Position numbers and translations under genes: made by a program. Shown here in pieces: positions 17,761-35,435 of a DNA stretch of 64,000 nucleotides. Position 1 is the stretch's first letter. The number at the start of each line of letters is the position of its first letter. The stretch is from Deltaproteobacteria bacterium (GTDB lineage Bacteria; Desulfobacterota; Deferrimicrobia; Deferrimicrobiales; Deferrimicrobiaceae). The notes beneath the pieces are model-generated. The model was not told the DNA's origin. It searched no databases and saw only the letters and a list, made by a program, of their open reading frames with translations. The DNA lies in the NCBI GenBank assembly GCA_021815305.1, contig JAKAHC010000004.1, positions 129,343 through 193,342 of the forward strand. The letters run 5' to 3'.

Positions 17761-17866
17761 CTGTCTCTTTACCCCTCTCCGCCGGCTCTTCGACCGTCCA
17801 CTCCCCTTATCGACCGGCGGCAGGGGAAACTTTACCCGGCATCGCCGTTTGGGTACACTTGGATCG

Positions 17867-19261
17867 ATGAGAAAATCGCTCCTGATCGCCGAGGACGACG
17901 AGGTCAACCTCAGTCTGTTGCGAAAGGTGTTCCAGCGGCCCGACCTCCTGGTCCACGAGGCGCGCACCGGGACGGAAGCCCTCCAGATCATCGATCAGCA
18001 ACCCGTGGATGTCGTCCTGACCGACCTGAAGATGCCCGGGGTCGACGGGCTCGCCGTCCTCGCCCATGCCCGGAAGGCACGCCCCGGCGCGGAGGTCATC
18101 CTCATGACCGGCCACGCCACGGTCGAATCCGCCGTAAGCGCGATGAAGATGGGGGCCTTCCACTACATCACCAAGCCGTTCGATGCCGACGAGGTCGTCC
18201 ACCTCGTCGGCCGGGTCCTCGAGCTGACCAGCGTGCGCAAGGAGAACGCGAGCCTGCGCGTCCTCGCCCGCGGGCGGAGCGGCCTCGAGAACATCATCGG
18301 CGTCAGCGAAGCGGCCAAGGAAGTGCTTTCCCTCGTGCGGAAGGTGGCCGACACCGACTCCACGGTGCTGATCACCGGGGAGAGCGGGACCGGGAAGGAA
18401 CTCGTGGCGCGGGCCATCCATTACCTTTCCCCGAGGGCCGACCGGATGCTCGTTCCCGTCAACTGCTCCGCCATCCCCGGCGAACTCCTGGAGAGCGAGA
18501 TGTTCGGGCACGTCAAGGGGGCGTTCACGGGGGCGCACGCGACGAGGGCGGGAAAGTTCGAGGCGGCCCACGGAGGGACGATCTTCCTCGACGAGATCGG
18601 GGAGATGAGCCCGAGCCTCCAGGCGAAACTGCTGCGGGTCCTGCAGGAGAAGTGGGTCACCCCCGTGGGCGGCAACAAGCCCATCCCCGTGGATGTCCGG
18701 GTGATCACGGCCACCAACAAGGACCTGGAAGAGGAGGTCTCCGAGGGGCGGTTCCGCAACGACCTCTACTTCCGCCTGAACGTCATTCCCATCCGCATCC
18801 CCCCATTGCGGGAGCGCCGGGAGGACATCCCCGCTCTCATTGCGCATTTCATCGAGCGATACGGCCGGCCCAAGGGGCGGTTCCTCGAGGGGATCCGCCC
18901 CCAGGCGCTCGACATCCTCTACCGGTACCCCTGGCCCGGAAACGTTCGCGAGCTCGAGAACCTCGTCGAGCGGGTCGTCGTCCTCAAGGGATCCGGGTGG
19001 ATCGAACCGCCGGATCTCCCGGAAAAGATCCGGCGGGCGGAGGGATTCCTCAAGACCGCCATGCCGGTCCTCGGAGAGAGCGGGCTCGACATCAGGAGCG
19101 CCACGGAGGATTTCGAGAACGCCCTCATCCGCCAGGCGCTCCACCTGTCCGGGGGGAACAAGAACCGCGCGGCCGCGTTGCTGGGCCTGAAACGCACGAC
19201 CTTGGTGGAGATGCTCAAGAGGAAGAACCTCGACGCGGGGGCTGCCGGCCCCCCGGGTTGA
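17867..19261 (+). CDS. sigma-54-dependent response regulator (NtrC/FlrC family enhancer-binding protein)
   Basis: REC domain (LIAEDDEVNL...DLKMPGVDG), AAA+ sigma-54 interaction domain with GESGTGKE and GAFTGA, C-terminal HTH. Confidence 0.9.
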   Translation: MRKSLLIAEDDEVNLSLLRKVFQRPDLLVHEARTGTEALQIIDQQPVDVVLTDLKMPGVDGLAVLAHARKARPGAEVILMTGHATVESAVSAMKMGAFHYITKPFDADEVVHLVGRVLELTSVRKENASLRVLARGRSGLENIIGVSEAAKEVLSLVRKVADTDSTVLITGESGTGKELVARAIHYLSPRADRMLVPVNCSAIPGELLESEMFGHVKGAFTGAHATRAGKFEAAHGGTIFLDEIGEMSPSLQAKLLRVLQEKWVTPVGGNKPIPVDVRVITATNKDLEEEVSEGRFRNDLYFRLNVIPIRIPPLRERREDIPALIAHFIERYGRPKGRFLEGIRPQALDILYRYPWPGNVRELENLVERVVVLKGSGWIEPPDLPEKIRRAEGFLKTAMPVLGESGLDIRSATEDFENALIRQALHLSGGNKNRAAALLGLKRTTLVEMLKRKNLDAGAAGPPG

Positions 19262-19294
19262 CCGCGTTTCCACGCTTGGGGTACTCTGGAACCC

Positions 19295-20872
19295 ATGGCG
19301 GAGATGGGCGCGCTGCTTTCCGCAATGGAATCACGGGTCGGCGATATCCGGAACCCGCTGGACCGGTCCCTCCCCCGCTCGATCGTCGACACTCTCTCCG
19401 ACCTTTCGCTGAACGCCGTCGTTCTCGGCACGCTCCGTTCCCTCTCCCTCCAGGAAGCCGGAGCCGGCCCCTCGGTCTGGATGGAGGCGGCGGACCGCCT
19501 CTTCCGCGGAGGATGCTCCCCCGCCGATTTCCTCAAGCTGACCCGGGCCGTCCTCGGGGCGCTCCGGGCGACGGCGGACGCAACGGCGTTCCCGGCGGAG
19601 GACCGGGCCGGCGTTTCCTCCCGGCTGGAGCTGTACTTCGATGCCGTGGAACGCGGCGGAATGGCGAGATGGGCCGGGGTGCTCGAGGAAACCGCGGCGC
19701 GCCTCCGCCAGACCGAGGAGCAGCTGGCGCAGGCGCAGAGAATGGAAGCCATCGGGCGGCTGACCGGGGGAATCGCGCACGATTTCAATAATCTCCTCAC
19801 AGGGATCCTCGGCTACGCCTCCCTCCTCAAGACCTTTCTCCCCGAGGGAAGCGATGGGTACGGGGCGGCCTCCTACATCGAGCGTTCCGCGCGCCGGGCC
19901 TCGGAGCTGACCCGGCAACTCCTCGCGTACTCCCGCCGGGAAACACCGAAGCTTCGCCCCGTGGAGATCCGCCGCGTCATCGAGGAGGCGGTGGGCATCC
20001 TGTCCCGCTCCGTCAACAAGAACGTGGAGATCCGCACCGATTTCCAGGCCCCTCCGGAAACGGTGATGGGGGATTCGGGTGCCCTCGTGCAGGCATTCCT
20101 CAACCTTGGGGTCAACGCGGGAGACGCCATGCCCGGAGGCGGGATCCTGACCTTCTCCACAACCCCTTTCGTCTCCGACGGGATGGTCTACGTGAACGAC
20201 GTACTGGTCCCCGAGGGACGGTACATCTCCGCGTGCGTTTCGGACACGGGTAGCGGCATCCCCGAAGCGATCCGGGAGCAGGTGTTCGCCCCCTTCTTCA
20301 CGACGAAAGCGCCGGGGGAGGGAACGGGGCTGGGCCTCTCCATGGTGTACAGCTGCGTGCGGACCCATTGCGGTTTCATCGGGATGGAGAGCCGAGAGGG
20401 CGCAGGGACGAGATTCCGGATCCTGCTCCCCATCGCCGAGGACCGCGCAGAACCCCTGGTTTCCCGCGAACCCGAGCACGTTCCCCAGGGCAGGGAGACG
20501 ATCCTGGTCATCGACGACGAGGACATTCCCCTCCACCTCTTGTGCGATATGCTCCGCTCCCTGGGGTACACTCCCCTTCCGGCGACCTCTGGAGAAGAAG
20601 GGATCGAGATCCTCACGTCCGCGCCGGGGAAAGTGGACCTGGTGATCCTGGACAAGATCATGCCGGGGATGGACGGAGCCGAGACGTTGCGGCGCCTGCG
20701 GGGGATCCGCCGGGGTCTCCGGGTGATCCTCTGTTCGGGCCATGCCGCGGAAGGAACGTCGGGGGCCCGCGTGTCCGGAGAATTCAACGATTTCCTGCAG
20801 AAGCCGTACGAGAGGGAGACGCTCGCGCGAAAAGTGCGCTCCGTCCTGGACAACAAAGCGTCAAGGATCTGA
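19295..20872 (+). CDS. hybrid sensor histidine kinase (HisKA-HATPase-REC)
   Basis: H-box HDFNNLLTGILGYASLL, HATPase G-boxes, C-terminal receiver (ILVIDDED...DLVILDKIMPGMDG). Confidence 0.85.
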   Translation: MAEMGALLSAMESRVGDIRNPLDRSLPRSIVDTLSDLSLNAVVLGTLRSLSLQEAGAGPSVWMEAADRLFRGGCSPADFLKLTRAVLGALRATADATAFPAEDRAGVSSRLELYFDAVERGGMARWAGVLEETAARLRQTEEQLAQAQRMEAIGRLTGGIAHDFNNLLTGILGYASLLKTFLPEGSDGYGAASYIERSARRASELTRQLLAYSRRETPKLRPVEIRRVIEEAVGILSRSVNKNVEIRTDFQAPPETVMGDSGALVQAFLNLGVNAGDAMPGGGILTFSTTPFVSDGMVYVNDVLVPEGRYISACVSDTGSGIPEAIREQVFAPFFTTKAPGEGTGLGLSMVYSCVRTHCGFIGMESREGAGTRFRILLPIAEDRAEPLVSREPEHVPQGRETILVIDDEDIPLHLLCDMLRSLGYTPLPATSGEEGIEILTSAPGKVDLVILDKIMPGMDGAETLRRLRGIRRGLRVILCSGHAAEGTSGARVSGEFNDFLQKPYERETLARKVRSVLDNKASRI

Positions 20873-21855: not shown

Positions 21856-23267
21856 TCAAGGGAGCGCGGGCCGACCCTCCAGCACCTCCCGGATCAGCTC
21901 CATCGGCGATCCGGCCGGCACGAACCCGTGCCCCTGCTCGTGCGGGGCAACCAGCCTGTCCCCCAGCGTTCCCGTCGCGCGGCGGAGATCCGCCCCCGCG
22001 ACAAGGTAGTCGCGCCGCGCGCGTGCCAGGTTCCCCCGCGCCTGCGTGAGGTTGAACTGCGCGTCGTCCACGTCGAGGCGGGTCTTCACGCCGTACTCGT
22101 ACCCCGTTTCCGCCATCGCCACGAGCCTCTCCGCCTGGCCGACCGTTCCGGATAGCGCTTCCACGGTTTGCCCCGCTTCCCGCACCGCGTTCACGGCGTT
22201 GCGCACCTCGAGGGCGATGGAATCGCGCTGCCGCGCCTCCTCGATACGGAGGGTGTTCACGTCGCTCCCGGCCTGGGCGACCCTCCCCCGCGTGCGGAAT
22301 CCGTCGAACAGGGACCAGGAGGCGAACACCCCGGCCGACCACGACTTTCCCCGGACGTCGAACGCGCCGAGATCCAGGTCCTGGTATCCCAGGGCCGACT
22401 GGAAGGTAAGCCGCGGCTTGTTCCCCGCCCGCGCGATGGTCAGCAGTTCCCCGGCGATCCCGAGCCGGTGCCGAAGGTCCGCGAGCTCCGGCCGGCTCCG
22501 CATCGCCGTCCCGAGGGCCTTCCGGTAATCGGGGGGTTCACCGACGACCACGGACAGGTCCCCCTGCGCGTCCACATCCCGCCCGTCCCGCCCGAGGAGG
22601 AAGCGCAACCGTTCCCGGGAAATCCGGACGAGGTTCGCCGTGCGCAGCACCTCGGGCTCGGCGTTCTGCAGCGCGACCTCCGAGGCCAGCACGTCGTAGT
22701 CGGTTGCGGTCCCCGCGGCGTACCGCTTCCGCGCCTCGTCGAGGTGCCTCGCTTTCTGCTCGCGGTTTCCGAGCGCAATGCGGGAGAGTTCCTTCGAAAG
22801 GAGCACGTCGTGAAACGCCGCGTACGCCTCCCGGAGGACGCCCAGGCGAGCGGTCCGCACCTGGTCGTCCGCTGCGGCCAAACCCACTTTCGCCGCGCGG
22901 ATTCCCGCAGACACCACGCCCGAGGAGTAGAGGGGCTGGGACATTTCCAGTTGCACCGCGTACCGGTTGCTGCCGGGGGGGATGCCGAACACCGCCTGGG
23001 TCTCGTCGAAGGCCCGCTGCGCTCCCGCCGTTCCGAGGAGCTGGGGGAGGGCGGCGGCGCGCTCCTCGACGTATTTCCCCGTCAGGCGGGCCCGCTGCTC
23101 GACCGCCTTCTTCAGGTCCCGGTTGTTCGCAAGGGCCGCGCGGAGGGCGTCCTCCAGCGTCAGCACCTCCACCCCGGAGGGACCCTCCGCGGCGCAGGCG
23201 GGGGGGACAAGGGCCGCGGTCCCCGCGCAAAGCGCCAGGAGGAGCGCTGCCGCGGCCGTACGGGACT
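21856..23267 (-). CDS. TolC-like outer membrane efflux factor (OMF), in frame with upstream RND gene
   Basis: About 470-aa C-terminal part of the 1496-aa ORF; begins with a signal-peptide-like KGKSRTAAAALLLALCAGTAALVPPACAAEG at an in-frame GTG; typical OEP repeats follow. Confidence 0.75.
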
Positions 23268-26200
23268 TTCCTTTCACCTTCCGCCGCGCCCAGTCCCCGA
23301 AATCGTCGAGGAGGGTGTACACCACGGGGACCACGAGGAGCGTGAGCATCGTCGACGTGATGAGCCCGCCGATGACGGCGCGCGCCATCGGCGCCCGCTC
23401 CTCCGCGCCCGCCCCGATGGCAAGCGCCAGGGGCAGCATGCCGAAGATCATCGCGAGCGTGGTCATCAGGATGGGCCGCAACCGCGTCCGCCCCGCTGCG
23501 ATCACGGCCTCCGTGCGGTCCATTCCCCGGTGTTGCAGCACCTTTGCGAAGTCCACCAGCAGGATCGCGTTCTTGGTCACCAGCCCCATCAGCATGATGA
23601 GTCCGATCAGGGACATGATGTTGATCGTGTCCCCCGTCAACAACAGCATCCCGGCCATTCCGACGATGGAGAGCGGAAGGGACAGCATGATGGCCAGCGG
23701 ATCGATGAACGACTCGAACTGCGCCGCGAGGATCAGGTAGACGAAGATCACCGCGAGCAACAGCGCCTCGGCCATGTACCCGAACGACTCCACCATGTCC
23801 TCTCCTTCCCCGGTGAAGGCCACCCTGTACCCCGGCGCCATCGGCATGCGCGCGGAGACCTCCCGGACCTTTTTCATCGCCTCTCCCAGCGGCAGTCCGT
23901 CGAGATTCGCGGAGAGGACCACCTCGCGCGTCAGGGCCTGGCGGTCGATCTCGGAGGGCGTGTCGCTCAAGCCGTACCGCGCGACGGCGCCCAGCGGCAC
24001 GAGGGCCACCCCTTCCGGGCGGCTGACCGCCAGCCGGAGCCGTTCCACCTGGGAGGGATCCTTCCGCAGGTCCGACGGGAGCCGCACGCGGACGTTCACC
24101 GCGTCGCCGTCCCGGTCCTCGTAGGTGGTCACCGCCTGTCCGCCCACCAGGGCGCCCAGGGTGCGCGCGATCCCCCCCGTGTTCACTCCCAGGTCCGCCG
24201 CCCGCTTCCCGTCCACCTTCAGGCGGTATTCCGGGATGTCGTGCTCCAGCGTCACCTCGAGGTCGACGATCCCGGGGATCTTGTAGATCTCCGCCTTCAG
24301 CGCGGCCGCGTACTTCTTCAGGAGATCGATGTCCTCGCCCCGCACGGCCACGTTGAACGGCTTGTCCCCCGTGACCCTGCCCACCTCCACGATCGCGGGG
24401 AGAATCCCCGGGATTCCATCGAGCCGCCTGCGGACCTCCTGCTGGATCGCGTCCTGCCGGCGCTTCCTGTCCCGCTTCTCCCCGAGCTTCACGTACACCA
24501 TCCCGTCCCGGACCGTCCCCGTGTCTCCCGCACCGATGGTCGCGAAGGTGCTGCGCACCTCGGGGATCCGGCGGATTTCCGCGAGAACGGCGTCGATGCG
24601 CCCCCGTGTTTCCTGGAGGGAGGCGTCCGGGGAGGTCTTGAAGTTGATCTGGAATTCGGCCCGGTCCACCGGGCTGAAGAATTCGGTCTTGAGGGATCCG
24701 AAGGCGAACAGGCCGCAGGCGAACGTAAACGTCGCCAGCAACACGATCGTCTTGCGGTGGCCAAGCGCCCACGAGATCACCCCGCGGTACCGGTCGGCCG
24801 CGCGGTCGAACCCGTCGTTGAACCGGTCGAGAATGCGGGCGAGCAGGTGCCTCCTTCCCGTCCGGTCGATGTCCGGGTCGTGCCAGCGCGAGGAGAGCAT
24901 CGGGTCCAGGGTGAACGAAACGAACAGGGAAACCAGGACGGCGAACGCCACGGTAATGCCGAACTGGAAGAAGAAGCGGCCGACGATCCCCTTCATGAAC
25001 GCCACCGGGACGAAAACGGCCACGATGGAAAAGGTGGTCGCCAGGACCGCCAGGCCGATCTCGGAGGTTCCCGCGGCGGCGGCTTCGTAGTGGTCCTGGC
25101 CGTGTTCCAGGTGGCGCACGATGTTTTCCCGCACGACGATGGCGTCGTCGATGAGGAGCCCGATGGCCAGCGAGAGCGCCATGAGCGTCATCACGTTGAG
25201 CGTCATCCCCATGAAGTTCATGACGATGAACGAGGAGATGACCGAGATCGGCAGGGTGAGCCCGGTGATCACGGTGGAGCGCCAGGAGTTGAGGAAGCAG
25301 AACACGATGAAGACGGTGAGCAACCCCCCCAGGACCAGCGTCACCTGGACGTCGTGCACGGAATCACGGATTTCCGTCGAGGCGTCCCGCACCATCTCGA
25401 TCCGCGTCCCCGCGGGAAGATCCGGCTGCAGACGCCCGATCTCCTTTTTCACGGCGTCCACCACGGACACGGTGTTGGCGCCCGACTGCTTCTGGATGTT
25501 GAGAGCGACCGCCGGAACGCCGTTGACCAGCGCCAGGGACCGTTGCTCCTCGATCCCGTCCACCACCTCGGCGACCTCCCCCAGCTTCACCGGCCTGCCG
25601 TTGCGCCCTCCGATGACCATATCGGCGAATTGCGGGACCTCCACGGGTTTTCCCGAGATGCGCAGCGGGAACTCCGAACCGTCCCGCGTAATCCTGCCCA
25701 GGGGGGTGTTCACGTTTTCCGATTGCAGCCCCGAGATCACCTCGTCCACGCCCATCCCGAGCGCCTCGAGCCGCGGCTGATCGATCCTCACGTTGACTTC
25801 CCGCTTGGAGGCGCCGATCAGGTCGACCTTCCCGACGCCGGGGATGTTCTCGAAGCGCCGCTTGACCTTCTTCTCGACGAGGGTGGTCAAGTCCCTCGGG
25901 GACAGGGCGTCGGACCGCACCGCCAGGGAGACGATGGGGGCCGCCGCGAAATCGAGTTTCTGGATGATCGGCTCCTCGATCCCCTGGGGCAGCTCGCCCC
26001 GGATGGCCGCCACCTTGGCGCGCGTCTCCTGGGCGCCGTCGTTCAGCCGCACCTCGAGCTGGAACTGCACGACGACCGTGGAGACGCCCTCGCGGGAGAT
26101 GGAGAGGACCTTCTTGACCCCGGCGATCGGGTTGACGGCCTCCTCGATCCGCTTGCTCACTTCCCGCTCGACGCTTTCCGGGGAGGCGCCGGGGAACTTC

Positions 26201-26346
26201 GTGACGACCGTGACCACGGGGATCTCGACGTCGGGGAACATGTCCACCGCAAGCCGCTTGTAGGAGAAGATCCCGAGCGTCACCAGCGCGAGCATCATGA
26301 CGGACGCGAAGATGGGTCGGCGGATGGAGAGGTCCGAGAGAAACAT
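23268..26346 (-). CDS. RND efflux pump inner-membrane transporter (HAE1/AcrB family); no stop codon before the OMF segment
   Basis: N-terminal MFLSDLSIRRPIFASVMMLALVTLGIFSYKRLAVDMFPDVEIPVVTV... is AcrB-like; 12-TM RND body; ORF continues uninterrupted into the OMF. Confidence 0.88.
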
Positions 26347-28327: not shown

Positions 28328-28747
28328 TTACGCGCCGCCCGCTTTCTTGGCCACGCGGGCGTTGAACTTCGCGAAATCCACGGAGAAGCGCTCGTGGGTG
28401 CCTTTCCCGATGACCTCGACGTCGTCCTTCGCCTCGATCTCCCACACGGTCCGCCGGCCGTCCACGCCGATGCACCGGACGTGGACCGTCACCGTCATCC
28501 CCGGCGGGGTCGCCGCGGTGTGGGTCACGTGGATCGACGTCCCCACGCTCCCCTCCCCCGGCTCCATGTGGGGCGCCATCGCTTCGAGGCATGCCCATTC
28601 CATGAGCCCCACCATGAACCCGGTAGCGAAGACCTTCGGCATCTCCCGGAACAGGTTCGACTCGGGGTAGAGGTGAGGGACCGTCTTGTTTTCCGGAACG
28701 CGGTACGTGTGGACGTGCTCCAGCCCGACCTTCAACGTGTCCTTCAT
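28328..28747 (-). CDS. hotdog-fold thioesterase family protein
   Basis: 139 aa from MKDTLKVGLEHVHTYRV...; thioesterase superfamily-like core; native high GC. Confidence 0.7.
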   Translation of the reverse strand: MKDTLKVGLEHVHTYRVPENKTVPHLYPESNLFREMPKVFATGFMVGLMEWACLEAMAPHMEPGEGSVGTSIHVTHTAATPPGMTVTVHVRCIGVDGRRTVWEIEAKDDVEVIGKGTHERFSVDFAKFNARVAKKAGGA

Positions 28748-28959
28748 GCGAAACCCCCTCCTTGGCGACATTTCGGTGTGCAACCATGCGACGCCCGCGG
28801 AGAAAACTTTATCCCGCATTTTCCGGTGAACACCGGGAGCGCCCCCCCCAAGCAAACTGTTTCCCTCCGCAAAAAGAGTCCAATGGAACAATAGCCGTTT
28901 TTCCCGGAAGGAACAATTATGAGGTCCTGAAAAGAGCGTTAATGCAAAGAACGTTTTAT

Positions 28960-28987
28960 TTGCACTTGCCGTATGACGTGCTACAAT
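28960..28987 (+). promoter_or_regulatory. sigma-70-like promoter (TTGCAC-16 nt-TACAAT) upstream of rpfF homolog
   Basis: -35 TTGCAC and -10 TACAAT with 16-nt spacer in an AT-rich, lower-GC intergenic region; about 50 nt upstream of the ATG at 29040. Confidence 0.45.
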
Positions 28988-29039
28988 TCACGCGTATTCG
29001 GGTAGCGGAAAATCGGGACGAATGGAGGGGTTACACGCG

Positions 29040-29936
29040 ATGAGTGTAGTAACACTTTCAAGTCCGGCCCATACCAACCCGTATTCCCATATATCGACGA
29101 GATTCGATTCTCAACATGGGGCATTGTGGTGTTTTCTCGACCCAAAACCTCGCGCGTGCTTCACGTTCGAGGTGTTGGATGAACTGCGCAGGTTTCAGCA
29201 AGTATTGGAACGCCTGGTAGACGCAGATGAAGGGGAGCGAGCCAGGGTAAGGTATGTGATCTTGGCATCAAAAACTCCCGGGATATTCAACTTCGGCGGA
29301 GACCTTTCCCTGTTCATTCAATGCATTACGAATCGAGATGCTATTACGCTCCGCAGGTATGCGAAGGCATGCATCGATGTTCTGTACCCTCATGCGATCG
29401 GTTTCCACCTTCCGCTCACAACGATCTCTCTGGTCCAGGGAGATGCGCTCGGAGGGGGTTTCGAAGCAGCCTTGGCTAGTGACATCATCATCGCGGAACA
29501 CAACGCCCAGATGGGGTTCCCTGAGGTCCTGTTCAATCTGTTCCCCGGGATGGGGGCTTATAATCTCCTCCAACGTCGGGTCGGGATGCTTCGAACGGAA
29601 AAGATGCTCCTCAACGGAAAACTCTACTCTGCGAAACAGTTGCACGAAGAGGGGGTGGTGGACATCCTGGCCGAAAACGGACGCGGGGAGAACGCGGTTT
29701 ATGAATATATCCTGCGGCAGTCCGCGCGACGAAACGCGCACGAGGCGATACTGAGGGTGCGCAGGAAGTTGCAGGCGGTCAGCTACGAACAACTTCTGGA
29801 AGTGGTCGAGGTCTGGATAAATACCGCATTGCAGATCACCCCCAGGGAGATCCGGATGATGGATCGTTTGATGAAGGCCCAAGGGCGAAATTCACAACAA
29901 GTCATCCGGTCTCCGTTTGCATCCCGACATCGATAA
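29040..29936 (+). CDS. rpfF: DSF-family signal synthase RpfF (crotonase-fold enoyl-CoA hydratase/thioesterase)
   Basis: Strong block-wise similarity to Xanthomonas RpfF: FNFGGDLSLF, ISLVQGDALGGGFEAAL (catalytic Glu), GFPEVLFNLFPGMGAY (second catalytic Glu), KMLLNGKLYSAKQL, VEVWINTALQ...MDRLMKAQ; alternative start 29022. Confidence 0.85.
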   Translation: MSVVTLSSPAHTNPYSHISTRFDSQHGALWCFLDPKPRACFTFEVLDELRRFQQVLERLVDADEGERARVRYVILASKTPGIFNFGGDLSLFIQCITNRDAITLRRYAKACIDVLYPHAIGFHLPLTTISLVQGDALGGGFEAALASDIIIAEHNAQMGFPEVLFNLFPGMGAYNLLQRRVGMLRTEKMLLNGKLYSAKQLHEEGVVDILAENGRGENAVYEYILRQSARRNAHEAILRVRRKLQAVSYEQLLEVVEVWINTALQITPREIRMMDRLMKAQGRNSQQVIRSPFASRHR

Positions 29937-29951
29937 GGTATTTGAACGGAG

Positions 29952-32522
29952 TTACGAAACCGCGGCGTTGCGGCCCTCGAGAAACCGGTCAAGCGCCACC
30001 CGGATCCGAGAGACTTCCTCCTTCATTTCCTCGAGATAGGTTTTCCCGTTCCGTTCGAGTTCCGGCCCCGAGATGCCTGAGAAATGGCCGCACACCCGCA
30101 CCAAAGCCAGCGCACCGATCTGCCCGGAGTTTCCCTTCAGCGCATGAGCCACCTCTCGGGCACCTTCCACGTCATTTCTGTCAATCGCACGCTCCATGTC
30201 ACGGACTTTCTCCTTTGCCCCCTTCAGGAAAGTCCACGCTAGACGCGCGACAAAATCGGTGTTTCCCTCAAGGTCTATCAACTCCTGAAGTGCTTTCGGA
30301 TCAAGACACAGAATATCTTCCCCTTTTTTCAATCCCTCCGCGACCACAGCGTTCCCATGTTCATTCTCTTCGGCAGTCTTCCGTGAATGTCCAGCTTTAG
30401 GCACTAATTCATTAAACAGTTCAAGGAGTTTCCGTGATTCGATAGGCTTTGTGAGGCACGCCTCCATCCCCGCTTCTTCGCACTCCGCCCTCGCCTCCTG
30501 GGTGGCGTCCGCCGTGAGCGCCACAATCGGCATCCGGGACGAGTTCCCGTTCATGAAGCGATAAAGTTTCGCGGCCTCGATTCCTCCCATCACCGGCATG
30601 TGAAGGTCCATCAGGGTGATGTCGAACGACCGGGATTTCAGCGCTTCGAGGGCCTGTTCTCCGTCATTCACAAGGATGGCCTCATGCCCCGCCCGTTCCA
30701 GGATCTTCGAAATGACCATCTGGTTGGTCGGATTGTCTTCCGCTACGAGAACGCGGAGACGTCTCTCCTCGCCCTCCCTTTGTCTATGCCGGTCTGCGAG
30801 GTGAGGAACTCCGGGGGTGCGGCTCGCAAGTTCCGGTCGGGAGAAGTGCAGGGCATTGAACAGCAATGTCTTACTTATTGGAGGCGCAAGCGTCGCGCTG
30901 TATATTCTCTTCATGATTTCGTTCGCCTCGACCGTTCCATCGGTCACCAGGACCAACTGGTGGTGGTGAATCGTCGGATCCGATTTGATCGCCCGCGCAA
31001 ACCCAAGCGCGTCCATATCGAGGCCGCGTTCCGCCACTATGATGAAATCAAAGGGAATTCCTGAATTGGCGGCGGAAACGATCTGCGCGAACGCCTGCGC
31101 AGAACGGGCCACCATCGCCGTACGGACACCCCACGCGGAAAGATGACCCATCACCTCTTCGCCGATGGACGCATCCGCGGACACGATCAGCGCCCGGCGC
31201 TCGGAGAGAGCGTTCGCGGCGGCACCCTCTCCCTGGCCGCTTCCCTGCTTCTTCATCACGACAGTAAACCAGAAGGTGCTCCCCTGCCCCGGATTGCTCC
31301 GCACTCCGATCTCGCCCCCCATCATCTCCACGATCTCCTTGGAGATCGTCGTCCCAAGCCCCGTGCCCCCGTACCGGCGCGTGATCGAATCGTCGGCCTG
31401 GGCGAACCGGTCGAAAATGCGCTTCTGGGCTTCCGCCGGGATTCCGATCCCGGTGTCCGCGACCTCGAACCGGATCGTCGCCTCGGTCGTTGCGTCCTTT
31501 TCCAAAGAGACCCGGACCCCCACCTCCCCCCGCTCCGTGAACTTCACTGCGTTCCCGAGAAGGTTCAGGATGACCTGGCGCAGGAGGAGCTGATCCCCTC
31601 GTAGCAGATACGGCACATTCGGCGGAACGTCGAGGAACACTTCCAGCCCTTTGGCCCTTGCCAGGGGCTCCATGATGGCAATCGTGTTCCTCACGAGACC
31701 GTGCAGGTCGAAATCGCTTGCCTGAACGGTCACCTTCCCCGCCTCGATCTTGGAGAGGTCCAACAGATCCTGCATCAGGAAGAGAAGGGTCCGAGCGGAA
31801 GCATCCACCGTGCTGATCATTTCACCTTGTTCCGTGTTCAAGGGCGTCTCTTTCAGCAGGTCGATCAACCCGATAATGCCGTTCAAAGGAGTCCGCATCT
31901 CGTGGCTCATGTTCGCAAGGAAGCGGTTTTTCGCCTTGTTGGCCTCCTCGGCCCGTTTGCCAGCGGCCGTCAATTTCTTCAGCAGCGCCGAAACGTACAG
32001 GGGGAGTATGACCAGTCCAACCTGTAGACCGACAGCAAGAACAAGCCTTTCCCTCCAATACGCGTTGCAGTAGATCGCAATTCCGAACGCGACTGTACCG
32101 ACAGCGGAAGAGAACAGCAGGTAATTCCTTCCGTACCGAAATCCGTTGCCGAAAATCACCCACAACAAAATAACGTAGAGGGGGCCAGCCGCATCACCAA
32201 CAACACTTATTCCGTAGCCCGTGAGGAACAAGTCGCCTAAGGCCCCGATGACGCGTCGCCAGACGGACTTTGCGGGATCAAACGTGATCAGGATGAAAAG
32301 ACAGAGCGAAATGAGGTGGTAAATCGCACTTACCCAGATAAGCTGGTACTCTTCCGGGGTTACATGGCCGTCCTTCCGCAACAGACAGTAAAGGTAAATG
32401 AAAACCAAGGCTGTAATGACAGACCGCACGAGCGCCTGCTCATGCTCGGTATCCGGCCGGCGGGCGAGGATCCCCCACGCCTGCCGGAACTCCCCGTGTG
32501 CCAACAACCGCCAGAACTTCAC
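29952..32522 (-). CDS. rpfC: RpfC-like hybrid sensor histidine kinase (multi-TM sensor, HisKA, HATPase, degenerate REC, REC, HPt)
   Basis: About 5-6 N-terminal TM helices; SHEMRTPLNGIIG H-box; HATPase; receiver LRVLVAEDNPTNQMV...DLHMPVMGG; C-terminal HPt with HALKGNSGQIGA; convergent with rpfF. Confidence 0.82.
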   Translation of the reverse strand: MKFWRLLAHGEFRQAWGILARRPDTEHEQALVRSVITALVFIYLYCLLRKDGHVTPEEYQLIWVSAIYHLISLCLFILITFDPAKSVWRRVIGALGDLFLTGYGISVVGDAAGPLYVILLWVIFGNGFRYGRNYLLFSSAVGTVAFGIAIYCNAYWRERLVLAVGLQVGLVILPLYVSALLKKLTAAGKRAEEANKAKNRFLANMSHEMRTPLNGIIGLIDLLKETPLNTEQGEMISTVDASARTLLFLMQDLLDLSKIEAGKVTVQASDFDLHGLVRNTIAIMEPLARAKGLEVFLDVPPNVPYLLRGDQLLLRQVILNLLGNAVKFTERGEVGVRVSLEKDATTEATIRFEVADTGIGIPAEAQKRIFDRFAQADDSITRRYGGTGLGTTISKEIVEMMGGEIGVRSNPGQGSTFWFTVVMKKQGSGQGEGAAANALSERRALIVSADASIGEEVMGHLSAWGVRTAMVARSAQAFAQIVSAANSGIPFDFIIVAERGLDMDALGFARAIKSDPTIHHHQLVLVTDGTVEANEIMKRIYSATLAPPISKTLLFNALHFSRPELASRTPGVPHLADRHRQREGEERRLRVLVAEDNPTNQMVISKILERAGHEAILVNDGEQALEALKSRSFDITLMDLHMPVMGGIEAAKLYRFMNGNSSRMPIVALTADATQEARAECEEAGMEACLTKPIESRKLLELFNELVPKAGHSRKTAEENEHGNAVVAEGLKKGEDILCLDPKALQELIDLEGNTDFVARLAWTFLKGAKEKVRDMERAIDRNDVEGAREVAHALKGNSGQIGALALVRVCGHFSGISGPELERNGKTYLEEMKEEVSRIRVALDRFLEGRNAAVS

Positions 32523-32738
32523 CGCTCCCCCCCAGGGTCCCGGTCTCCCGGGGTCCCGCCAGAAGCTCTCATCGGCAGAGAAAAGGGGGAAGTTTACTGA
32601 AAAATCAGGAAGAATCCGTCGGGTGAGCCGTCCAAACCCGGGGAGGAAAAGGAATCCCGCGGACCCGGCGCGGCATCGCCCCGCGGGGTCATCGGATATC
32701 GGCCGCGAAAACGGTTCCGGTGCCCGTGCTTCCGGCCG

Positions 32739-33011
32739 TCAGCCGTCACGGACCCAGACGACCCGCAGCAGTTTGGTATCTTCCGACCGCTTGTAGGCGA
32801 GGGTCCCGGCGCACGCCTTCCGGACCTCCCGCCCGATCCGCTGGGCAAGCTTTCCGTCGGTGGTCAGGAGTTCCAGGGAGGATCCGTCCTCCCGGATTTC
32901 CATGATGCGTTCCAGCGGGTTGATTCCGCAGGCCCTCTGTTCCTCGTTCCGCGCAAGCCGAAGGATTTCGTCCCGATGATCGCGCAGGTAACCGCCGCGC
33001 AGGGTCACCAC
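32739..33011 (-). CDS. hypothetical small protein
   Basis: 90-aa ORF at the distal edge of the low-GC island; no family recognised. Confidence 0.35.
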   Translation of the reverse strand: MVTLRGGYLRDHRDEILRLARNEEQRACGINPLERIMEIREDGSSLELLTTDGKLAQRIGREVRKACAGTLAYKRSEDTKLLRVVWVRDG

Positions 33012-33056
33012 CCCCGCGGGGAATCCGTCCGCCGCTCCAGGAGGGAGGGCGGGGGG

Positions 33057-35435
33057 CTATTCGACCCGGATCCCCTCGGGGGTCTTGCGGACCATGACCG
33101 GAGCGTTTTCCGCCGCCTTCCGCCCCAGCAGACCTTCCGCGCTCATGGCGCCGATGGGACCGCGGATCCACCGATCGACGGCTCGCCCGAGTTCGCGGAC
33201 GCCGTACTCCGGGTGGTACCCTTCCTCGGCCAACCACGCCGCCGCATCCTCCGCCACGTCGAGACGGACGCCATGGTCGGCGAGAAGCCCCTCCGCCAGC
33301 TCCGCGAGCTGGACCTCGAGCACCTTCCGCACGTCCCCCGGGGCGAGCGCCCGGAACACGATCTGCTCGTCCACCCGGTTCAGGAACTCCGGCCGGAACC
33401 GCCTGCGGACCTCGGCGAGGGCGCCGGTGGCCGCAACGGAAGGTTCCCCCGCGAGGAACCCCATTTCCTTCTGGACGCGGATGTTCCCCGTCATGATGAA
33501 GATGGAGTGGCGGGCATCCGCCGTGTGTCCCTGCGCATCGGTGATCTTCCCTTCGTCGAACAGCTGGAGGAACAGGTCGAACACCCGGTGAGCGGCCTTC
33601 TCCACCTCGTCGAGGAGGACCACCGAGTACGGCGTGGTGCGCAGCCTCGCAACGAGCTGCCCGCCTTCCTCGTAGCCCACGTACCCCGGCGCCGCGCCGA
33701 TGAGCCGGGAAACGCTGGTTTCCTCCTGGTACTCCGACATGTCGAGGCGGATGAAGGCGCGTTCGTTGGGAAACAGGTACTCGGCGATCCTGCGGGCCAC
33801 CTCGGTCTTCCCGACCCCGGAAGGGCCGAGGAAGAGGAACACGCCCATCGGGCGGCGGCGGTTCCCGAACCCGGCATGGGACAGGACGATGCGCTTGCAG
33901 ACGCGCGAGATCGCCTCTTCCTGGCCGACGATGTGTCGGTTCAGGTATTCCGCAAGCCCGCGGATGCGCGACTCCGAGATCCCGCCCAGCCCCCCCCGGG
34001 CAACCTCGATGGGGATTCCCATCTTCTCGGCGACGACGCGGGCCACGTAGTCCGGCGTGACCACCGCCACGCCGACGGGATCGTACCGATCGGAGTGCGC
34101 CGCCATGGAAAGGAGGGGAACCCGGCACTCCGCGCAGGCGCGGTCCAGCAGGTCGATCGCCTTGTCCGGGAGAAATCGCGTCGGGTCGAATCGTACGGCG
34201 AGGTCCACGGTCGCCGAGAGCGCCTCGTCGACGATCGTCACCCCGAAGTGGCGTTCGCGGTGGGCGCGCAATCCCTCGAGGATCGCCAGCGTCTCTTCCC
34301 TTCCCGGCTCCACGACCTGGATCGCCTGGAAGCGGCGCTCCAGCGCCGGATCCTTCTCGATGCTGCGCCGGTATTCCGTGTTCGTCGTCGCTCCGATGCA
34401 ACGGAGTTCCCCGCGGGCCAGCGCAGGCTTCATGATGTTCCCCGCGTCCATCGGAGCTCCCTCGGCCCGCCCCGCCCCCGCGACGGTGTGGAACTCGTCG
34501 ATGAAAAGGAGCACCTCCGGGTGGGACCGGACCTCGTCGATCAGGCGCGTGAGGCGCTCCTCGAACTCTCCGCGGTACTTCGTCCCCGCCACCAGCTCCG
34601 CCATCGACAGCTCGACCAGGCGTCGGCCCGCGAGGACCTTGCGGTCCCGCCCCATCGCGATCCGTTCCGCGAGCGCCTCGACGACGGCGGTCTTGCCGAC
34701 CCCGGCCTCGCCCACGAGGACGGGGTTGTTCTTGGTGGGCATCATGAGGACCTTGATGAGCTGGCGCAGCGTATTGCGGGTCCGGTCCGAGTCCACGAAC
34801 GGCAGGAGGCGGCCTTCCCTCGCGGCGCGCGTGATGTCGCGTCCATACCGGTCCAGGAGCGGGGTTTCGGAAGGGGTCATCTCCTCCGCGGGTTGATAAG
34901 GGCCCGCATCGTCCCTTACGTGGCTCGGCTCGCGGTACGGCTCCCTGCCCCCGAGCAGGTCCTTTCGCAACAGGTCCGGCGGGATCCCCGCGCCCGCCAG
35001 CACGGCGGATACGACCGGGCCCGGATCATCGAGGATCGCGGCGAAAAGGTGGCGGGTGGAAACCTCCTCCGCCTCCGCCGGTTCCGCGAGCTCCCCGGCC
35101 CTGCGGAAGATCTGCTTGCACTCTTCGCTCCGGTGGACCACCGGCTCTTCGTGAACCGCGGTTCCCGGCCGCAGCCGGGAACGGACACCGCGGCGGAAGG
35201 TCTCGCTCGTAATTCCCAGCCGGCCGAGGATCCGTTCGATCTCCCCCCCTTCCTCCCGGATGGACTCCACCGGCAGCGACTCGACGTGAGTGAAGTTCAG
35301 GTATTGAAGCACCTTCCGGAGGCTCAGGACTCCGACGACGATGTGCTCCCGCTCGATCAGAGGGTGCCGCGCACGGGCCGCTTCGGCGGCGCCGATCTCC
35401 CAGGCCATGCGGGCGGCTGCTGTCATTTTCGGCAT
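33057..35435 (-). CDS. Clp-family AAA+ ATPase (ClpA/ClpC-like; two AAA modules, Clp-N domain, no long middle domain)
   Basis: Clp_N repeats at the N-terminus; Walker A GEAGVGKTAVVEALA and GPSGVGKTEVARRIA; 792 aa. Confidence 0.88.
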   Translation of the reverse strand: MPKMTAAARMAWEIGAAEAARARHPLIEREHIVVGVLSLRKVLQYLNFTHVESLPVESIREEGGEIERILGRLGITSETFRRGVRSRLRPGTAVHEEPVVHRSEECKQIFRRAGELAEPAEAEEVSTRHLFAAILDDPGPVVSAVLAGAGIPPDLLRKDLLGGREPYREPSHVRDDAGPYQPAEEMTPSETPLLDRYGRDITRAAREGRLLPFVDSDRTRNTLRQLIKVLMMPTKNNPVLVGEAGVGKTAVVEALAERIAMGRDRKVLAGRRLVELSMAELVAGTKYRGEFEERLTRLIDEVRSHPEVLLFIDEFHTVAGAGRAEGAPMDAGNIMKPALARGELRCIGATTNTEYRRSIEKDPALERRFQAIQVVEPGREETLAILEGLRAHRERHFGVTIVDEALSATVDLAVRFDPTRFLPDKAIDLLDRACAECRVPLLSMAAHSDRYDPVGVAVVTPDYVARVVAEKMGIPIEVARGGLGGISESRIRGLAEYLNRHIVGQEEAISRVCKRIVLSHAGFGNRRRPMGVFLFLGPSGVGKTEVARRIAEYLFPNERAFIRLDMSEYQEETSVSRLIGAAPGYVGYEEGGQLVARLRTTPYSVVLLDEVEKAAHRVFDLFLQLFDEGKITDAQGHTADARHSIFIMTGNIRVQKEMGFLAGEPSVAATGALAEVRRRFRPEFLNRVDEQIVFRALAPGDVRKVLEVQLAELAEGLLADHGVRLDVAEDAAAWLAEEGYHPEYGVRELGRAVDRWIRGPIGAMSAEGLLGRKAAENAPVMVRKTPEGIRVE

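What the first reader, a model, noticed from the sequence alone, without database searches (positions are those of the whole stretch)
28750..32740. Low-GC island carrying an RpfF-type DSF synthase and an RpfC-like hybrid kinase: a horizontally acquired DSF-family quorum-sensing module
Between the high-GC thioesterase gene and the clp gene lies an approximately 3.9-kb stretch with visibly lower G+C (about 50-55% by eye, versus about 65-70% flanking). The boundaries are approximate and were not computed. It encodes a crotonase with block-by-block similarity to Xanthomonas RpfF, including both catalytic glutamates (GGGFEAAL and GFPEVLF contexts). Convergent with it is a hybrid kinase with RpfC architecture (multi-TM sensor, HisKA, HATPase, receiver, HPt). 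The island has its own AT-rich sigma-70-type promoter (TTGCAC-16-TACAAT). DSF signalling is classically a Xanthomonadales/Burkholderia trait. Finding it as a compact island in an otherwise sigma-54-rich, Deltaproteobacteria-like chromosome suggests lateral acquisition of a cis-2-unsaturated fatty-acid signalling system.
Basis: partly seen in the sequence, partly recalled or inferred. Interest (0 to 1): 0.78.

Follow-up and report, generated by a model that had tools for sequence, protein, structure and literature searches.

The report
DSF-type signalling pair in variable slot
This low-GC stretch carries a fatty-acid (DSF-type) quorum-sensing synthase and its receptor kinase, but it is not a foreign island: it is one of several interchangeable signalling cassettes found at the same chromosomal slot in related uncultured Deferrimicrobiaceae bacteria.

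Summary
Bases 28750-32740 have 57.0% GC against 66.3% for the rest, the lowest of any equal-sized window in the 64 kb. They carry an RpfF-like crotonase (29040-29936, +) convergent with an 856-aa hybrid kinase (29952-32522, -).

The DSF-type reading is well supported. Solved RpfF structures are by far the best crotonase matches, and both catalytic glutamates are kept. The kinase carries R-x-D-T-E-x-x-Q at the start of its first membrane helix. These are the residues shown to bind DSF in Xanthomonas RpfC. In 31 mostly proteobacterial relatives an RpfG-like HD-GYP regulator sits beside the pair.

The "laterally acquired island" reading is only partly right. The same pair lies between the same flanking genes in at least 15 related species genomes and in 40 of 64 related metagenome loci. 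The window's synthase groups with those relatives. No tRNA, repeats or mobility genes are present.

The slot itself is variable. It holds at least 8 synthase types, a receptor-only form, and an alternative radical-SAM + MBL-hydrolase + paralogous-kinase cassette. One locus keeps a replacement scar. Synthase type co-varies with the kinase's sensor domain only. Low GC tracks the variable segments.

Verdict: a new member of a known kind, in an interesting polymorphic locus.

The parts
28748..29039 (.). AT-rich divergent intergenic region between the FlK thioesterase gene and the synthase gene (GC 0.52).
   Evidence: The homologous region has GC 0.45-0.54 in 13 of 15 relatives. It contains a conserved promoter block and, in relatives, the palindrome GGAAAGATAGCCTTTCC, which is degenerate here.
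28959..28987 (+). Sigma-70-type promoter-like site, TTTGCA-17-TACAAT with an upstream TG.
   Evidence: 1 site found against 1.4 expected, so it is not significant alone; the TTTGC ... GTGnTAnnAT block aligns across about 15 relatives whose spacers are otherwise diverged.
29040..29936 (+). RpfF-like crotonase, a putative DSF-family signal synthase (298 aa). Catalytic Glu142 and Glu162 in 298-aa numbering.
   Evidence: Pfam ECH_1, 4.2e-25. NCBIfam NF006452: 354 bits against a cut-off of 177. RpfF model NF053515: 224 bits against a cut-off of 550. Best solved structure is Xcc RpfF 3m6m at 4.7e-55, against 3e-17 for the best ordinary crotonase. Both glutamates are invariant in 24 homologs. GC3 0.62.
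29952..32522 (-). RpfC-like hybrid sensor histidine kinase (856 aa). Phosphorelay sites His207, Asp639 and His793.
   Evidence: GC3 is 0.71 overall and mosaic along the gene.
31968..32522 (-). Membrane input (sensor) domain of the kinase, aa 1-185. Six modelled helices. This is the hypervariable segment that co-varies with synthase type in relatives.
   Evidence: AlphaFold model with mean pLDDT 91.2; helices 26-50, 56-81, 87-111, 113-130, 132-152 and 160 onward. Hydropathy. Co-variation.
32436..32459 (-). Motif R22-P-D24-T25-E26-H-E-Q29 at the start of the first membrane helix. It matches the DSF-binding residues of Xcc RpfC (R15, D17, S18, E19, Q22).
   Evidence: PMC5391125, read; that paper reports S18T as functional. 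R.D[ST]E..Q occurs in 40 of 66 kinases paired with RpfF-like genes. E26, E28 and Q29 are invariant, and R22 and D24 nearly so, in 22 sensor homologs.
31233..31967 (-). HisKA + HATPase catalytic core (aa 186-430). This is the conserved segment with the highest GC3 in the gene (0.81).
30768..31232 (-). Receiver-like insert without an acceptor aspartate (aa 431-585; IIVAERG where a receiver has its Asp).
   Evidence: Sequence read; no Pfam hit. The receiver-like fold is my inference from the sequence pattern.
30393..30767 (-). Receiver domain (aa 586-710).
   Evidence: Pfam Response_reg, 8.9e-23. The best receiver-only solved chain is the RpfC REC domain, 3m6m_D, at 8.2e-28.
29955..30392 (-). Linker and Hpt domain (aa 711-856).
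   Evidence: Pfam Hpt, 9.2e-09. HALKG with His793.
28328..28747 (-). Left flank marker, not part of the cassette: FlK-type hotdog thioesterase. GC3 0.93.
   Evidence: Pfam FlK, 4.7e-33. 83-93% identical in relatives.
32739..35435 (-). Right flank markers, not part of the cassette: orf90 (32739-33011, a fragment of a BCAM0308-family protein) and a ClpA-like ATPase (33057-35435). GC3 0.80 and 0.88.

Best explanation
The stretch is a two-gene DSF-family quorum-sensing cassette. It is resident in a conserved but polymorphic chromosomal slot of an uncultured Deferrimicrobiaceae-like bacterium (candidate phylum MBNT15 / Deferrimicrobiota; older records call these MAGs Deltaproteobacteria).

Inferred mechanism. 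The RpfF-like crotonase dehydrates a 3-hydroxyacyl-ACP and cleaves the thioester to release a cis-2-unsaturated fatty acid. The hybrid kinase detects that acid through its membrane input domain, using the R-x-D-T-E-x-x-Q residues at the start of the first helix. It autophosphorylates at His207 and relays phosphate through Asp639 and His793. The final acceptor is a response regulator encoded elsewhere. In mostly proteobacterial relatives that regulator is an adjacent RpfG-like HD-GYP c-di-GMP phosphodiesterase. None is linked here.

Origin. The cassette as such is old in this lineage and was not imported from Xanthomonadales or Burkholderia. The synthase gene and the kinase's sensor segment are hypervariable and co-vary between close relatives, and whole cassettes are gained, lost and replaced at this slot. 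The unusually low GC of this genome's copy marks it as a divergent allele of that polymorphic cassette. It was most likely brought in by recombination from a lower-GC member of the same gene pool.

Shown: composition, gene identities, motifs, synteny, co-variation and cassette alternatives. Inferred: the chemistry, the ligand, the downstream regulator and the cause of the low GC.
For: Identity of the genes:
- RpfF structures are the top solved matches by about 38 orders of magnitude over ordinary crotonases, and both catalytic Glu align.
- The synthase passes NCBIfam NF006452.
- The kinase has the RpfC domain order and six modelled membrane helices.
- The DSF-binding residues of RpfC are conserved.
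- RpfC REC is the best receiver-only solved match.
- A source (JGI) names the homologs 'DSF synthase' and 'RpfC'.
- A convergent RpfF-like/kinase pair was detected in about 70 of the 80 loci fetched with the synthase, and 31 of them carry a REC + HD-GYP gene directly upstream of the kinase.

Residency in the lineage:
- The order AcrB/OEP-MFP-TetR-FlK | pair | orf90/ClpA recurs in at least 15 species representatives and in L084.
- The NJ tree nests the window's synthase among those relatives.
- There are no mobility hallmarks.

Polymorphic slot:
- 40 of 64 FlK-anchored loci carry the pair and 24 do not.
- There are at least 8 synthase types at 75% identity.
- L103 has the receptor only.
- A radical-SAM + MBL + paralogous hybrid-kinase cassette occupies the same slot in five loci that keep all three genes (L115, L118, L119, L131, L132); contig-truncated parts of it occur in four more (L127, L128, L136, L143).
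- L115 keeps 228 aa of a type-A sensor in front of a type-B kinase.

Co-variation:
- Synthase identity correlates with sensor identity (r = 0.63, Mantel p about 0.0005).
- It does not correlate with the kinase core (0.18), receiver (0.16), Hpt (0.17) or FlK (0.18).
- DNA profiles show two discrete variable segments separated by about 2 kb at 82-96% identity.

Low GC:
- Variable segments have lower GC3 than conserved ones in nearly all relatives.
- Other low-GC3 cassettes sit in the same slot within high-GC3 flanks: L100, L144 and L118.
- The window synthase's first-position GC (0.59) and GARP share (0.285) are also among the lowest of its syntenic clade.
Against: - No enzymatic or ligand data exist for any member of this sister clade that I could find.
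- The synthase fails NCBIfam's RpfF equivalog cut-off (224 against 550).
- No RpfG or HD-GYP gene lies within the 64 kb, so the output is unknown.
- Six modelled helices would put the N-terminal motif on the cytoplasmic side. The Xcc RpfC model has five helices with a periplasmic motif.
- No lower-GC donor was found: the best homolog is 71% identical and sits in a high-GC syntenic context.
- The window's protein divergence from relatives (RpfF 62-69%, kinase 60-66%) matches that between other genus-level pairs. Vertical descent is therefore not excluded.
- The GC3 mosaic within the kinase fits local decay as well as it fits import.
Confidence: 0.6

Rival explanations
1. Vertical ortholog with local AT drift. 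The pair has been inherited in place. Its low GC arises because hypervariable, allele-specific segments recombine poorly with the rest of the population. They therefore escape GC-biased gene conversion or selection for GC-ending codons and decay toward AT. No import is needed.
For: - The window's RpfF and kinase divergence from relatives equals that between other genus-level pairs.
- The synthase nests in the syntenic clade.
- GC3 tracks conservation codon block by codon block. The N-terminal motif has 0.90, the core 0.83-0.87 and the C-terminal half of the receiver 0.80-0.90. The sensor has 0.60-0.67 and the linker/Hpt 0.33-0.60.
- The same milder pattern appears in nearly all relatives.
- No donor was found.
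Against: - The drop is far larger here (GC3 0.62/0.71) than in most syntenic relatives (0.74-0.94) with comparable divergence.
- First-position GC and amino-acid composition are shifted too.
- Demonstrated cassette replacement and other sharply low-GC cassettes in the same slot (L118, L100, L144, L115 scar) show that import does happen here.
Confidence: 0.3
2. One reading: a compact genomic island recently acquired from outside the lineage (Xanthomonadales or Burkholderia type) and inserted between the thioesterase and clp genes.
For: - A GC dip about five standard deviations below the window mean, and the top tetranucleotide deviation.
- A sharp left edge at the FlK start codon.
- 24 of 64 related loci lack the synthase.
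Against: - The same pair sits at the same site in at least 15 species representatives and 40 of 64 metagenome loci.
- The tree places the gene with those relatives, and Xcc RpfF and Bcam0581 fall outside the whole family.
- The best hit anywhere is 71% identical.
- There is no tRNA, integrase, transposase or flanking repeat.
- The AT-rich promoter region is shared with relatives.
Confidence: 0.07
3. Not a signalling system. The crotonase is an ordinary enoyl-CoA hydratase of fatty-acid metabolism that happens to lie next to an unrelated hybrid kinase.
For: - The Pfam hit is only to the generic ECH_1 family.
- The adjacent genes are lipid-related (FlK thioesterase, TetR, RND efflux).
- The synthase falls below the RpfF equivalog cut-off.
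Against: - 190 bits to RpfF against 66 bits to the best ordinary hydratase.
- A convergent partner kinase was detected in about 70 of the 80 loci fetched with the synthase, across several phyla.
- An RpfG-like gene is adjacent in 31 loci.
- The RpfC ligand-binding motif is conserved.
- The synthase co-varies specifically with the kinase's sensor domain.
Confidence: 0.03

Closest known systems
Xanthomonas campestris Rpf system: RpfF synthase, RpfC hybrid kinase, RpfG HD-GYP regulator
   Same: - Crotonase-fold synthase with both catalytic glutamates.
- Kinase with a multi-helix membrane input, then HisKA, HATPase, receiver and Hpt.
- The R-x-D-S/T-E-x-x-Q ligand-binding residues next to the first helix.
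- rpfF convergent with rpfC.
- The RpfC receiver domain is the best solved receiver-only match.
   Different: - The synthase belongs to a sister clade: NF006452, not the RpfF equivalog NF053515 (224 bits against a cut-off of 550).
- No rpfG, rpfB or rpfH is linked.
- The kinase is 856 aa and carries an extra receiver-like insert.
- Six helices are modelled rather than the five proposed for RpfC.
- The host is candidate phylum Deferrimicrobiota.
rpfF-rpfG-rpfC clusters of environmental bacteria (Thiobacillus, Methylobacillus, Methylophaga, Leptospirillum; PMC4504480, PMC8357829)
   Same: The proteobacterial loci fetched here belong to the same protein family as the window's pair. They include Thiobacillaceae, Nitrosomonadales, Gallionellaceae, Sideroxydans and Chromatiaceae. 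They show the convergent rpfF / rpfC-rpfG layout. DSF-family compounds were detected in Leptospirillum cultures (PMC8357829).
   Different: The Deferrimicrobiaceae version lacks the adjacent rpfG. It sits in a fixed, polymorphic slot next to the FlK/TetR/RND genes. I did not test whether the published Leptospirillum or Thiobacillus genes fall in this exact clade.
Stenotrophomonas maltophilia rpf-1 / rpf-2 variants (PMC4517397)
   Same: Within one taxon the synthase and the N-terminal sensor of RpfC occur in fully associated variant pairs. This is the same kind of synthase-sensor co-variation seen here among relatives.
   Different: - There are two variants there against at least 8 synthase types here.
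- There the difference lies mainly in the N-termini and in the number of membrane helices (5 or 10). Here the whole synthase gene and the whole membrane domain differ.
- Here the slot can also be empty of the pair, hold the receptor only, or hold a non-crotonase cassette.
Specificity-group (pherotype) loci such as staphylococcal agr and Bacillus comQXP (from general knowledge)
   Same: Hypervariable signal-production and receptor-input segments flanked by conserved sequence, with variants distributed without regard to genome relatedness.
   Different: - The chemistry differs (fatty acid rather than peptide).
- The two variable segments are not contiguous: they lie at the outer ends of a convergent gene pair.
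- No cross-activation data exist.
Burkholderia cenocepacia Bcam0581 (RpfF_Bc) with RpfR
   Same: The synthase is homologous (6dgn at 1.9e-47, 5fus at 3e-46). The bifunctional dehydratase/thioesterase chemistry is the model for the inferred reaction.
   Different: The receptor here is a membrane hybrid kinase, not the cytoplasmic PAS-GGDEF-EAL protein RpfR.

Membership tests
RpfF / DSF synthase | Crotonase (enoyl-CoA hydratase/isomerase) fold | tested here: met
   Pfam ECH_1, 4.2e-25, residues 41-214.
RpfF / DSF synthase | Two catalytic glutamates (Xcc Glu141, Glu161) | tested here: met
   They align to the window's GGGFE and GFPE in the 3m6m alignment. E142 and E162 are invariant in 24 homologs.
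RpfF / DSF synthase | Closer to characterised RpfF proteins than to ordinary enoyl-CoA hydratases | tested here: met
   3m6m at 4.7e-55, 7zq7 at 1.8e-52 and 6dgn at 1.9e-47, against 3e-17 for the best non-RpfF crotonase.
RpfF / DSF synthase | Score above NCBIfam's RpfF equivalog cut-off (NF053515) | tested here: not met
   224 bits against a cut-off of 550. It passes the sister model NF006452 (354 bits against 177). In the NJ tree, Xcc RpfF and Bcam0581 fall outside the clade holding all the fetched loci.
RpfF / DSF synthase | Produces cis-2-unsaturated fatty acids from 3-hydroxyacyl-ACP | not testable with these tools
   Needs expression plus GC-MS/LC-MS or a biosensor.
RpfC-type DSF sensor kinase | Hybrid architecture: membrane input, HisKA, HATPase, receiver, Hpt | tested here: met
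   His207, Asp639 and His793 are present.
RpfC-type DSF sensor kinase | Multi-helix membrane input domain (five helices in Xcc RpfC) | tested here: inconclusive
   A membrane input domain is present, but six helices are modelled (pLDDT 91). Hydropathy gives 5-6 segments. A homolog weakly hits the 6TM_PilS family (26 bits against a cut-off of 27). Topology is unresolved.
RpfC-type DSF sensor kinase | DSF-binding residues Arg15, Asp17, Ser18, Glu19, Gln22 adjoining the first membrane helix (PMC5391125) | tested here: met
   The window has R22-P-D24-T25-E26-H-E-Q29. The paper reports S18T as functional. The motif is present in 40 of 66 paired kinases and is invariant or nearly so in sensor homologs. 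The comparison uses residue names from the paper, not a full RpfC alignment.
RpfC-type DSF sensor kinase | Encoded next to and convergent with rpfF | tested here: met
   Stop codons 15 bases apart. The same layout was detected in about 70 of the 80 loci fetched with the synthase.
Complete Rpf signalling cluster | Linked RpfG (receiver + HD-GYP) response regulator | tested here: not met
   No HD-GYP match anywhere in the 64 kb or in the syntenic Deferrimicrobiaceae loci. It is present directly upstream of the kinase in 31 mostly proteobacterial loci.
Horizontally acquired genomic island | Deviant base composition with defined edges | tested here: met
Horizontally acquired genomic island | Mobility hallmarks (tRNA target, integrase or transposase, flanking direct repeats) | tested here: not met
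   No tRNA in the window. Only short chance-level repeats. The neighbouring genes are efflux, TetR, thioesterase and ClpA.
Horizontally acquired genomic island | Absent from the same site in close relatives | tested here: inconclusive
   Present at the site in at least 15 species representatives and 40 of 64 metagenome loci, and absent or replaced in 24 of 64. No same-genus genome was available for the window's organism.
Horizontally acquired genomic island | Gene tree incongruent with host relationships | tested here: not met
   The window's synthase nests within the syntenic Deferrimicrobiaceae clade. Incongruence is seen for other loci: within one genus-level cluster, L065 carries a synthase from another clade, the clade that also holds the L057 and L083 synthases.

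The most novel reading that the evidence does not exclude
The slot between the FlK thioesterase and orf90/ClpA in Deferrimicrobiaceae may be a quorum-sensing specificity locus. The DSF-type synthase and the membrane sensor of its kinase would co-diversify into many private signal-receptor pairs, at least 8 types, with this window carrying a singleton low-GC type. They would be maintained by balancing or diversifying selection and exchanged by recombination. The same slot can instead hold a radical-SAM + MBL-hydrolase + paralogous-kinase cassette, which would then be an uncharacterised signal-synthesis system using an RpfC-like receptor. If so, this would be the first pherotype-like system for fatty-acid signals and a lead to a new signal class.
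Probability: 0.4. Interest if true: 0.72.

Novelty: new member of a known kind. Interest (0 to 1): 0.48.

Why it matters
The finding extends RpfF/RpfC-type fatty-acid signalling to an uncultured candidate phylum (MBNT15 / Deferrimicrobiota). I found no quorum-sensing literature for that phylum. The RpfC ligand-binding residues defined in Xanthomonas are conserved across distant phyla, which makes them a usable marker for DSF receptors in metagenomes.

The more valuable lead is the comparative picture. Synthase and sensor segments co-vary independently of the rest of the genome, and whole cassettes are swapped at one site. This gives a natural panel of synthase-receptor pairs with which signal specificity in DSF systems could be tested directly. 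It also shows that a sharp GC dip need not mean a foreign island. Here the dip marks the hypervariable part of an old, resident locus.

Tried and rejected
- The exact-protein look-up with the upstream ATG (29022) found nothing. The 29040 start is the one on record and agrees with homolog N-termini.
- The plus-strand 822-aa ORF that could be read as clp has no domain. The real ClpA-like gene is on the minus strand.
- tRNA scan of the whole window: none.
- Repeat scan of 27.8-33.6 kb: only short two-copy matches of the kind expected by chance.
- Rfam scan of the whole window: no match.
- The promoter scan alone is not above chance. Support comes only from conservation.
- I looked for a cognate regulator. 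Twenty neighbouring genes were scanned with Pfam. Three RpfG-like proteins from relatives were then compared by tblastn against the window. No HD-GYP gene turned up. The nearest regulator is a receiver/sigma-54 activator plus hybrid kinase at 17.6-20.9 kb, with no evidence of a link.
- I looked for a lower-GC donor. The best of 5.8 billion proteins is 71% identical and lies in a high-GC syntenic contig.
The taxon was inferred from syntenic MAG titles.
- The search with the sensor domain returned only 24 mostly fragmentary proteins, so RpfC of Xanthomonas itself was not aligned.
- Literature searches on quorum sensing in Deferrimicrobia and on natural RND-TolC fusions gave nothing usable.
- I considered and rejected a sigma-54 promoter reading of TTGCAC: there is no TGGCAC element at the right spacing in the sequence.

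Full report
1. The observation

A sliding profile shows GC falling from 0.65-0.72 to 0.50-0.60 between about 28.7 and 32.5 kb. No other part of the 64 kb falls as low.

- It is the lowest of all equal-sized windows. Outside it the minimum is 0.613, the mean 0.665 and the sd 0.018.
- It is also the most deviant 4-kb stretch in tetranucleotide use.

At synonymous sites the left edge is sharp at the start codon of the neighbouring thioesterase gene. The right edge lies inside the kinase gene. Its first 30 codons have GC3 0.90 and the next 150 have 0.60-0.67. The 216-base spacer beyond the kinase has normal GC.

The crotonase is 298 aa at 29040-29936 (+) and contains GGGFEAAL and GFPEVLF. It is convergent with an 856-aa hybrid kinase at 29952-32522 (-), which has HisKA, HATPase, receiver and Hpt domains.

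- The clp gene is on the minus strand (33057-35435); the long plus-strand ORF there is spurious.
- A 90-aa ORF lies between the kinase and clp.
- The thioesterase is a FlK-type hotdog protein.

The TTGCAC-16-TACAAT site is literally there. By itself it is no more than chance gives.

2. What the genes are

The synthase. The crotonase matches solved RpfF structures far better than any other crotonase: Xcc RpfF 3m6m at 4.7e-55 and Burkholderia Bcam0581 at about 1e-47, against 3e-17 for the next family. Both catalytic glutamates align and are invariant in 24 homologs. It passes NCBIfam model NF006452 (354 bits against a cut-off of 177) but not the RpfF equivalog (224 bits against 550). In a neighbour-joining tree, all 80 loci fetched from species-representative genomes form a clade, and Xcc RpfF and Bcam0581 fall outside it. 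It is therefore an RpfF-like enzyme of a sister clade.

The kinase.
- It has the RpfC domain order.
- Its receiver domain's best receiver-only solved match is the RpfC REC domain.
- Its input domain models with high confidence (pLDDT 91) as six helices.
- The DSF-binding residues of Xcc RpfC are Arg15, Asp17, Ser18 (S18T is functional), Glu19 and Gln22, adjoining the first helix (PMC5391125). The window kinase has R22-P-D24-T25-E26-H-E-Q29 in exactly that position.
- The pattern R.D[ST]E..Q is present in 40 of 66 kinases paired with RpfF-like genes. It is invariant or nearly so among sensor homologs.

Support from relatives. In 31 mostly proteobacterial loci of the same family, a receiver + HD-GYP gene (RpfG-like) lies directly upstream of the kinase. 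This gives the canonical layout, rpfG-rpfC convergent with rpfF.

The DSF-type reading is thus well supported by homology. What is missing here is the regulator. No HD-GYP gene occurs in the 64 kb or in the syntenic relatives.

3. Is it a laterally acquired island?

Evidence against a foreign island:
- A scan of one genome per species found 450 related loci.
- In at least 15 of the fetched loci the pair lies in the same order: RND pump, membrane-fusion protein, TetR, FlK thioesterase | synthase, kinase | orf90 and/or ClpA. These are MAGs titled Candidatus Deferrimicrobiaceae or, in older records, Deltaproteobacteria.
- The flanking proteins are 79-89% identical to the window's; the pair is only 46-67% identical.
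- The closest homolog anywhere (71%) is on a metagenome contig with the same neighbours. There the pair has ordinary GC3 (0.91-0.93).
- The window's synthase nests inside this syntenic clade.
- There is no tRNA, flanking repeat or mobility gene.
- The AT-rich spacer upstream of the synthase and the promoter-like block are shared by relatives.

The pair is therefore old in this lineage and did not come from Xanthomonadales or Burkholderia. The premise that DSF systems are confined to those groups is also outdated (PMC4504480; PMC8357829).

4. The slot is polymorphic

I anchored a metagenome scan on the flanking thioesterase instead of the pair. Of the 64 loci with enough sequence, 40 carry an RpfF-like gene next to FlK and 24 do not. 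The alternatives are:
- L103 has the kinase with no synthase, only 165 bases from FlK.
- Five loci (L115, L118, L119, L131, L132) carry all three genes of a different cassette: a B12-type radical-SAM enzyme, an MBL-fold hydrolase and a convergent paralogous hybrid kinase. That kinase is 35-37% identical to the window's and has the same domain order. Four more loci (L127, L128, L136, L143) show contig-truncated parts of it.
- About ten loci have unrelated genes (DJ-1/PfpI and an NHL-repeat protein) and no kinase.

L115 preserves a scar. The first 228 residues of a type-A sensor, including RPDSEHEQ and a decayed H-box, lie in front of a complete type-B kinase. Cassettes at this site are evidently gained, lost and replaced.

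5. Synthase and sensor co-vary

One genus-level group of relatives has ClpA 90-95% identical (L005, L010-L013, L016, L017, L065).
- The kinase core and receiver are 82-95% identical within it.
- The synthase splits into at least four types that are only 45-66% identical to one another.
- The membrane sensor splits along much the same lines, most clearly for the two multi-member types.

DNA identity profiles show two discrete variable segments: the synthase gene, and about 450 bases encoding the sensor. They are separated by about 2 kb at 82-96% identity.

Over 39 loci:
- Synthase identity correlates with sensor identity (r = 0.63, Mantel p about 0.0005).
- It hardly correlates with the core (0.18), receiver (0.16), Hpt (0.17) or FlK (0.18).
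- Among close pairs, the same synthase type goes with 74% sensor identity and a different type with 61%. All other segments are equal between the two classes.
- There are 8 synthase types at 75% identity, and the window's is a singleton.

The nearest precedent is the rpf-1/rpf-2 variant pair of Stenotrophomonas maltophilia (PMC4517397). The pattern also resembles the specificity groups of peptide systems.

6. Why is the GC low here?

- In nearly all relatives the variable parts (synthase, sensor, Hpt) have lower GC3 than the kinase core and receiver.
- In the window this is extreme: synthase 0.62, sensor 0.68, core 0.81 and Hpt 0.62, against flanks of 0.88-0.93. Along the gene it is mosaic.
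- First-position GC and amino-acid composition are shifted as well.
- Other sharply low-GC cassettes sit in the same slot within high-GC flanks: L118 (0.46-0.59), L100 and L144.

Two explanations remain.
- Replacement by a divergent allele from a lower-GC member of the same gene pool. The replacement scar and the parallel cases favour this.
- In-place decay of recombination-poor hypervariable segments. The conservation-linked mosaic, the ordinary level of protein divergence and the absence of any donor favour this.

I rate them about 2:1 and cannot separate them with these data.

7. Verdict

The functional reading (a DSF-family synthase plus an RpfC-like receptor) is supported by homology and by a conserved ligand-binding motif. 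The evolutionary reading (a foreign island) is not supported as stated.

What is there is a new member of a known kind of system in a little-studied phylum, without a linked regulator. It occupies a polymorphic slot whose synthase-sensor co-variation and alternative cassettes are the most interesting lead.

Noticed in passing
window 21856-26346 (-): One continuous 1496-aa ORF joins an RND efflux permease (aa 4-1014) to a TolC-family outer-membrane factor (aa 1062-1463). The same uninterrupted match of about 1498 aa, at 72-79% identity, occurs in at least seven relatives. It therefore looks like a conserved natural RND-OMF fusion rather than a sequencing error.
   Followed up: partly
L115, L118, L119, L131, L132 (three genes); L127, L128, L136, L143 (truncated parts); e.g. 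L131 2677-7818: In the same chromosomal slot as the window's pair, these relatives carry a B12-type radical-SAM enzyme, an MBL-fold hydrolase and a convergent paralogous hybrid kinase (N-terminal GPELEQGIIRL). This may be a different signal-synthesis/receptor cassette. The L118 version has GC3 0.46-0.59 within flanks of 0.93-0.95.
   Followed up: partly
L115 1952-5206: A 1084-aa ORF. Its first 228 residues are an RpfC-like type-A sensor with a decayed H-box, followed in frame by a complete type-B kinase. This is a scar of cassette replacement.
   Followed up: yes
L103 1692-4876: The RpfC-like kinase is present only 165 bases from the FlK gene, and the synthase gene is absent. This is a receptor-only (possible eavesdropper) variant.
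   Followed up: partly
window 32739-33011 (-): orf90 matches only the C-terminal two-thirds of the BCAM0308 family (NF040826, 81.7 bits against a cut-off of 100). Relative L084 has a 168-aa version. The window copy may be truncated next to the ClpA stop codon.
   Followed up: partly
window about 28881-28905, and the homologous spacer in L005, L007, L010-L013, L015, L016: A palindrome, GGAAAGATAGCCTTTCC, is conserved upstream of the synthase promoter in relatives and is degenerate in the window. It may be an operator, for example for the adjacent TetR.
   Followed up: no
L065 (also L057, L083), synthase gene: L065 has a kinase 76-83% identical to those of its genus-level cluster, but its synthase is only 45-48% identical to theirs and belongs to another clade. 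That clade also holds the synthases of L057 and L083. It lies next to clades holding second-copy pairs of other Deferrimicrobiaceae MAGs (L043, L060) and loci of other taxa (L030, L033, L034). This points to in-place replacement of the synthase alone.
   Followed up: partly
window 17636-20872 (+): A receiver/sigma-54 activator (541 aa) is followed by a second hybrid histidine kinase (525 aa), about 8 kb from the island. No evidence links them to the DSF-type pair.
   Followed up: no
window 30768-31232 (-), kinase aa 431-585: A receiver-like insert between the HATPase and the true receiver domain lacks the acceptor aspartate (IIVAERG). It is the least conserved cytoplasmic segment, at 42-53% identity to relatives.
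   Followed up: no
L006 and L015 (one MAG); L036 and L060 (one MAG): Some MAGs carry two RpfF-like/kinase pairs. For L006 and L015 both copies lie next to a FlK gene. This means either a duplication or two strains binned together.
   Followed up: no
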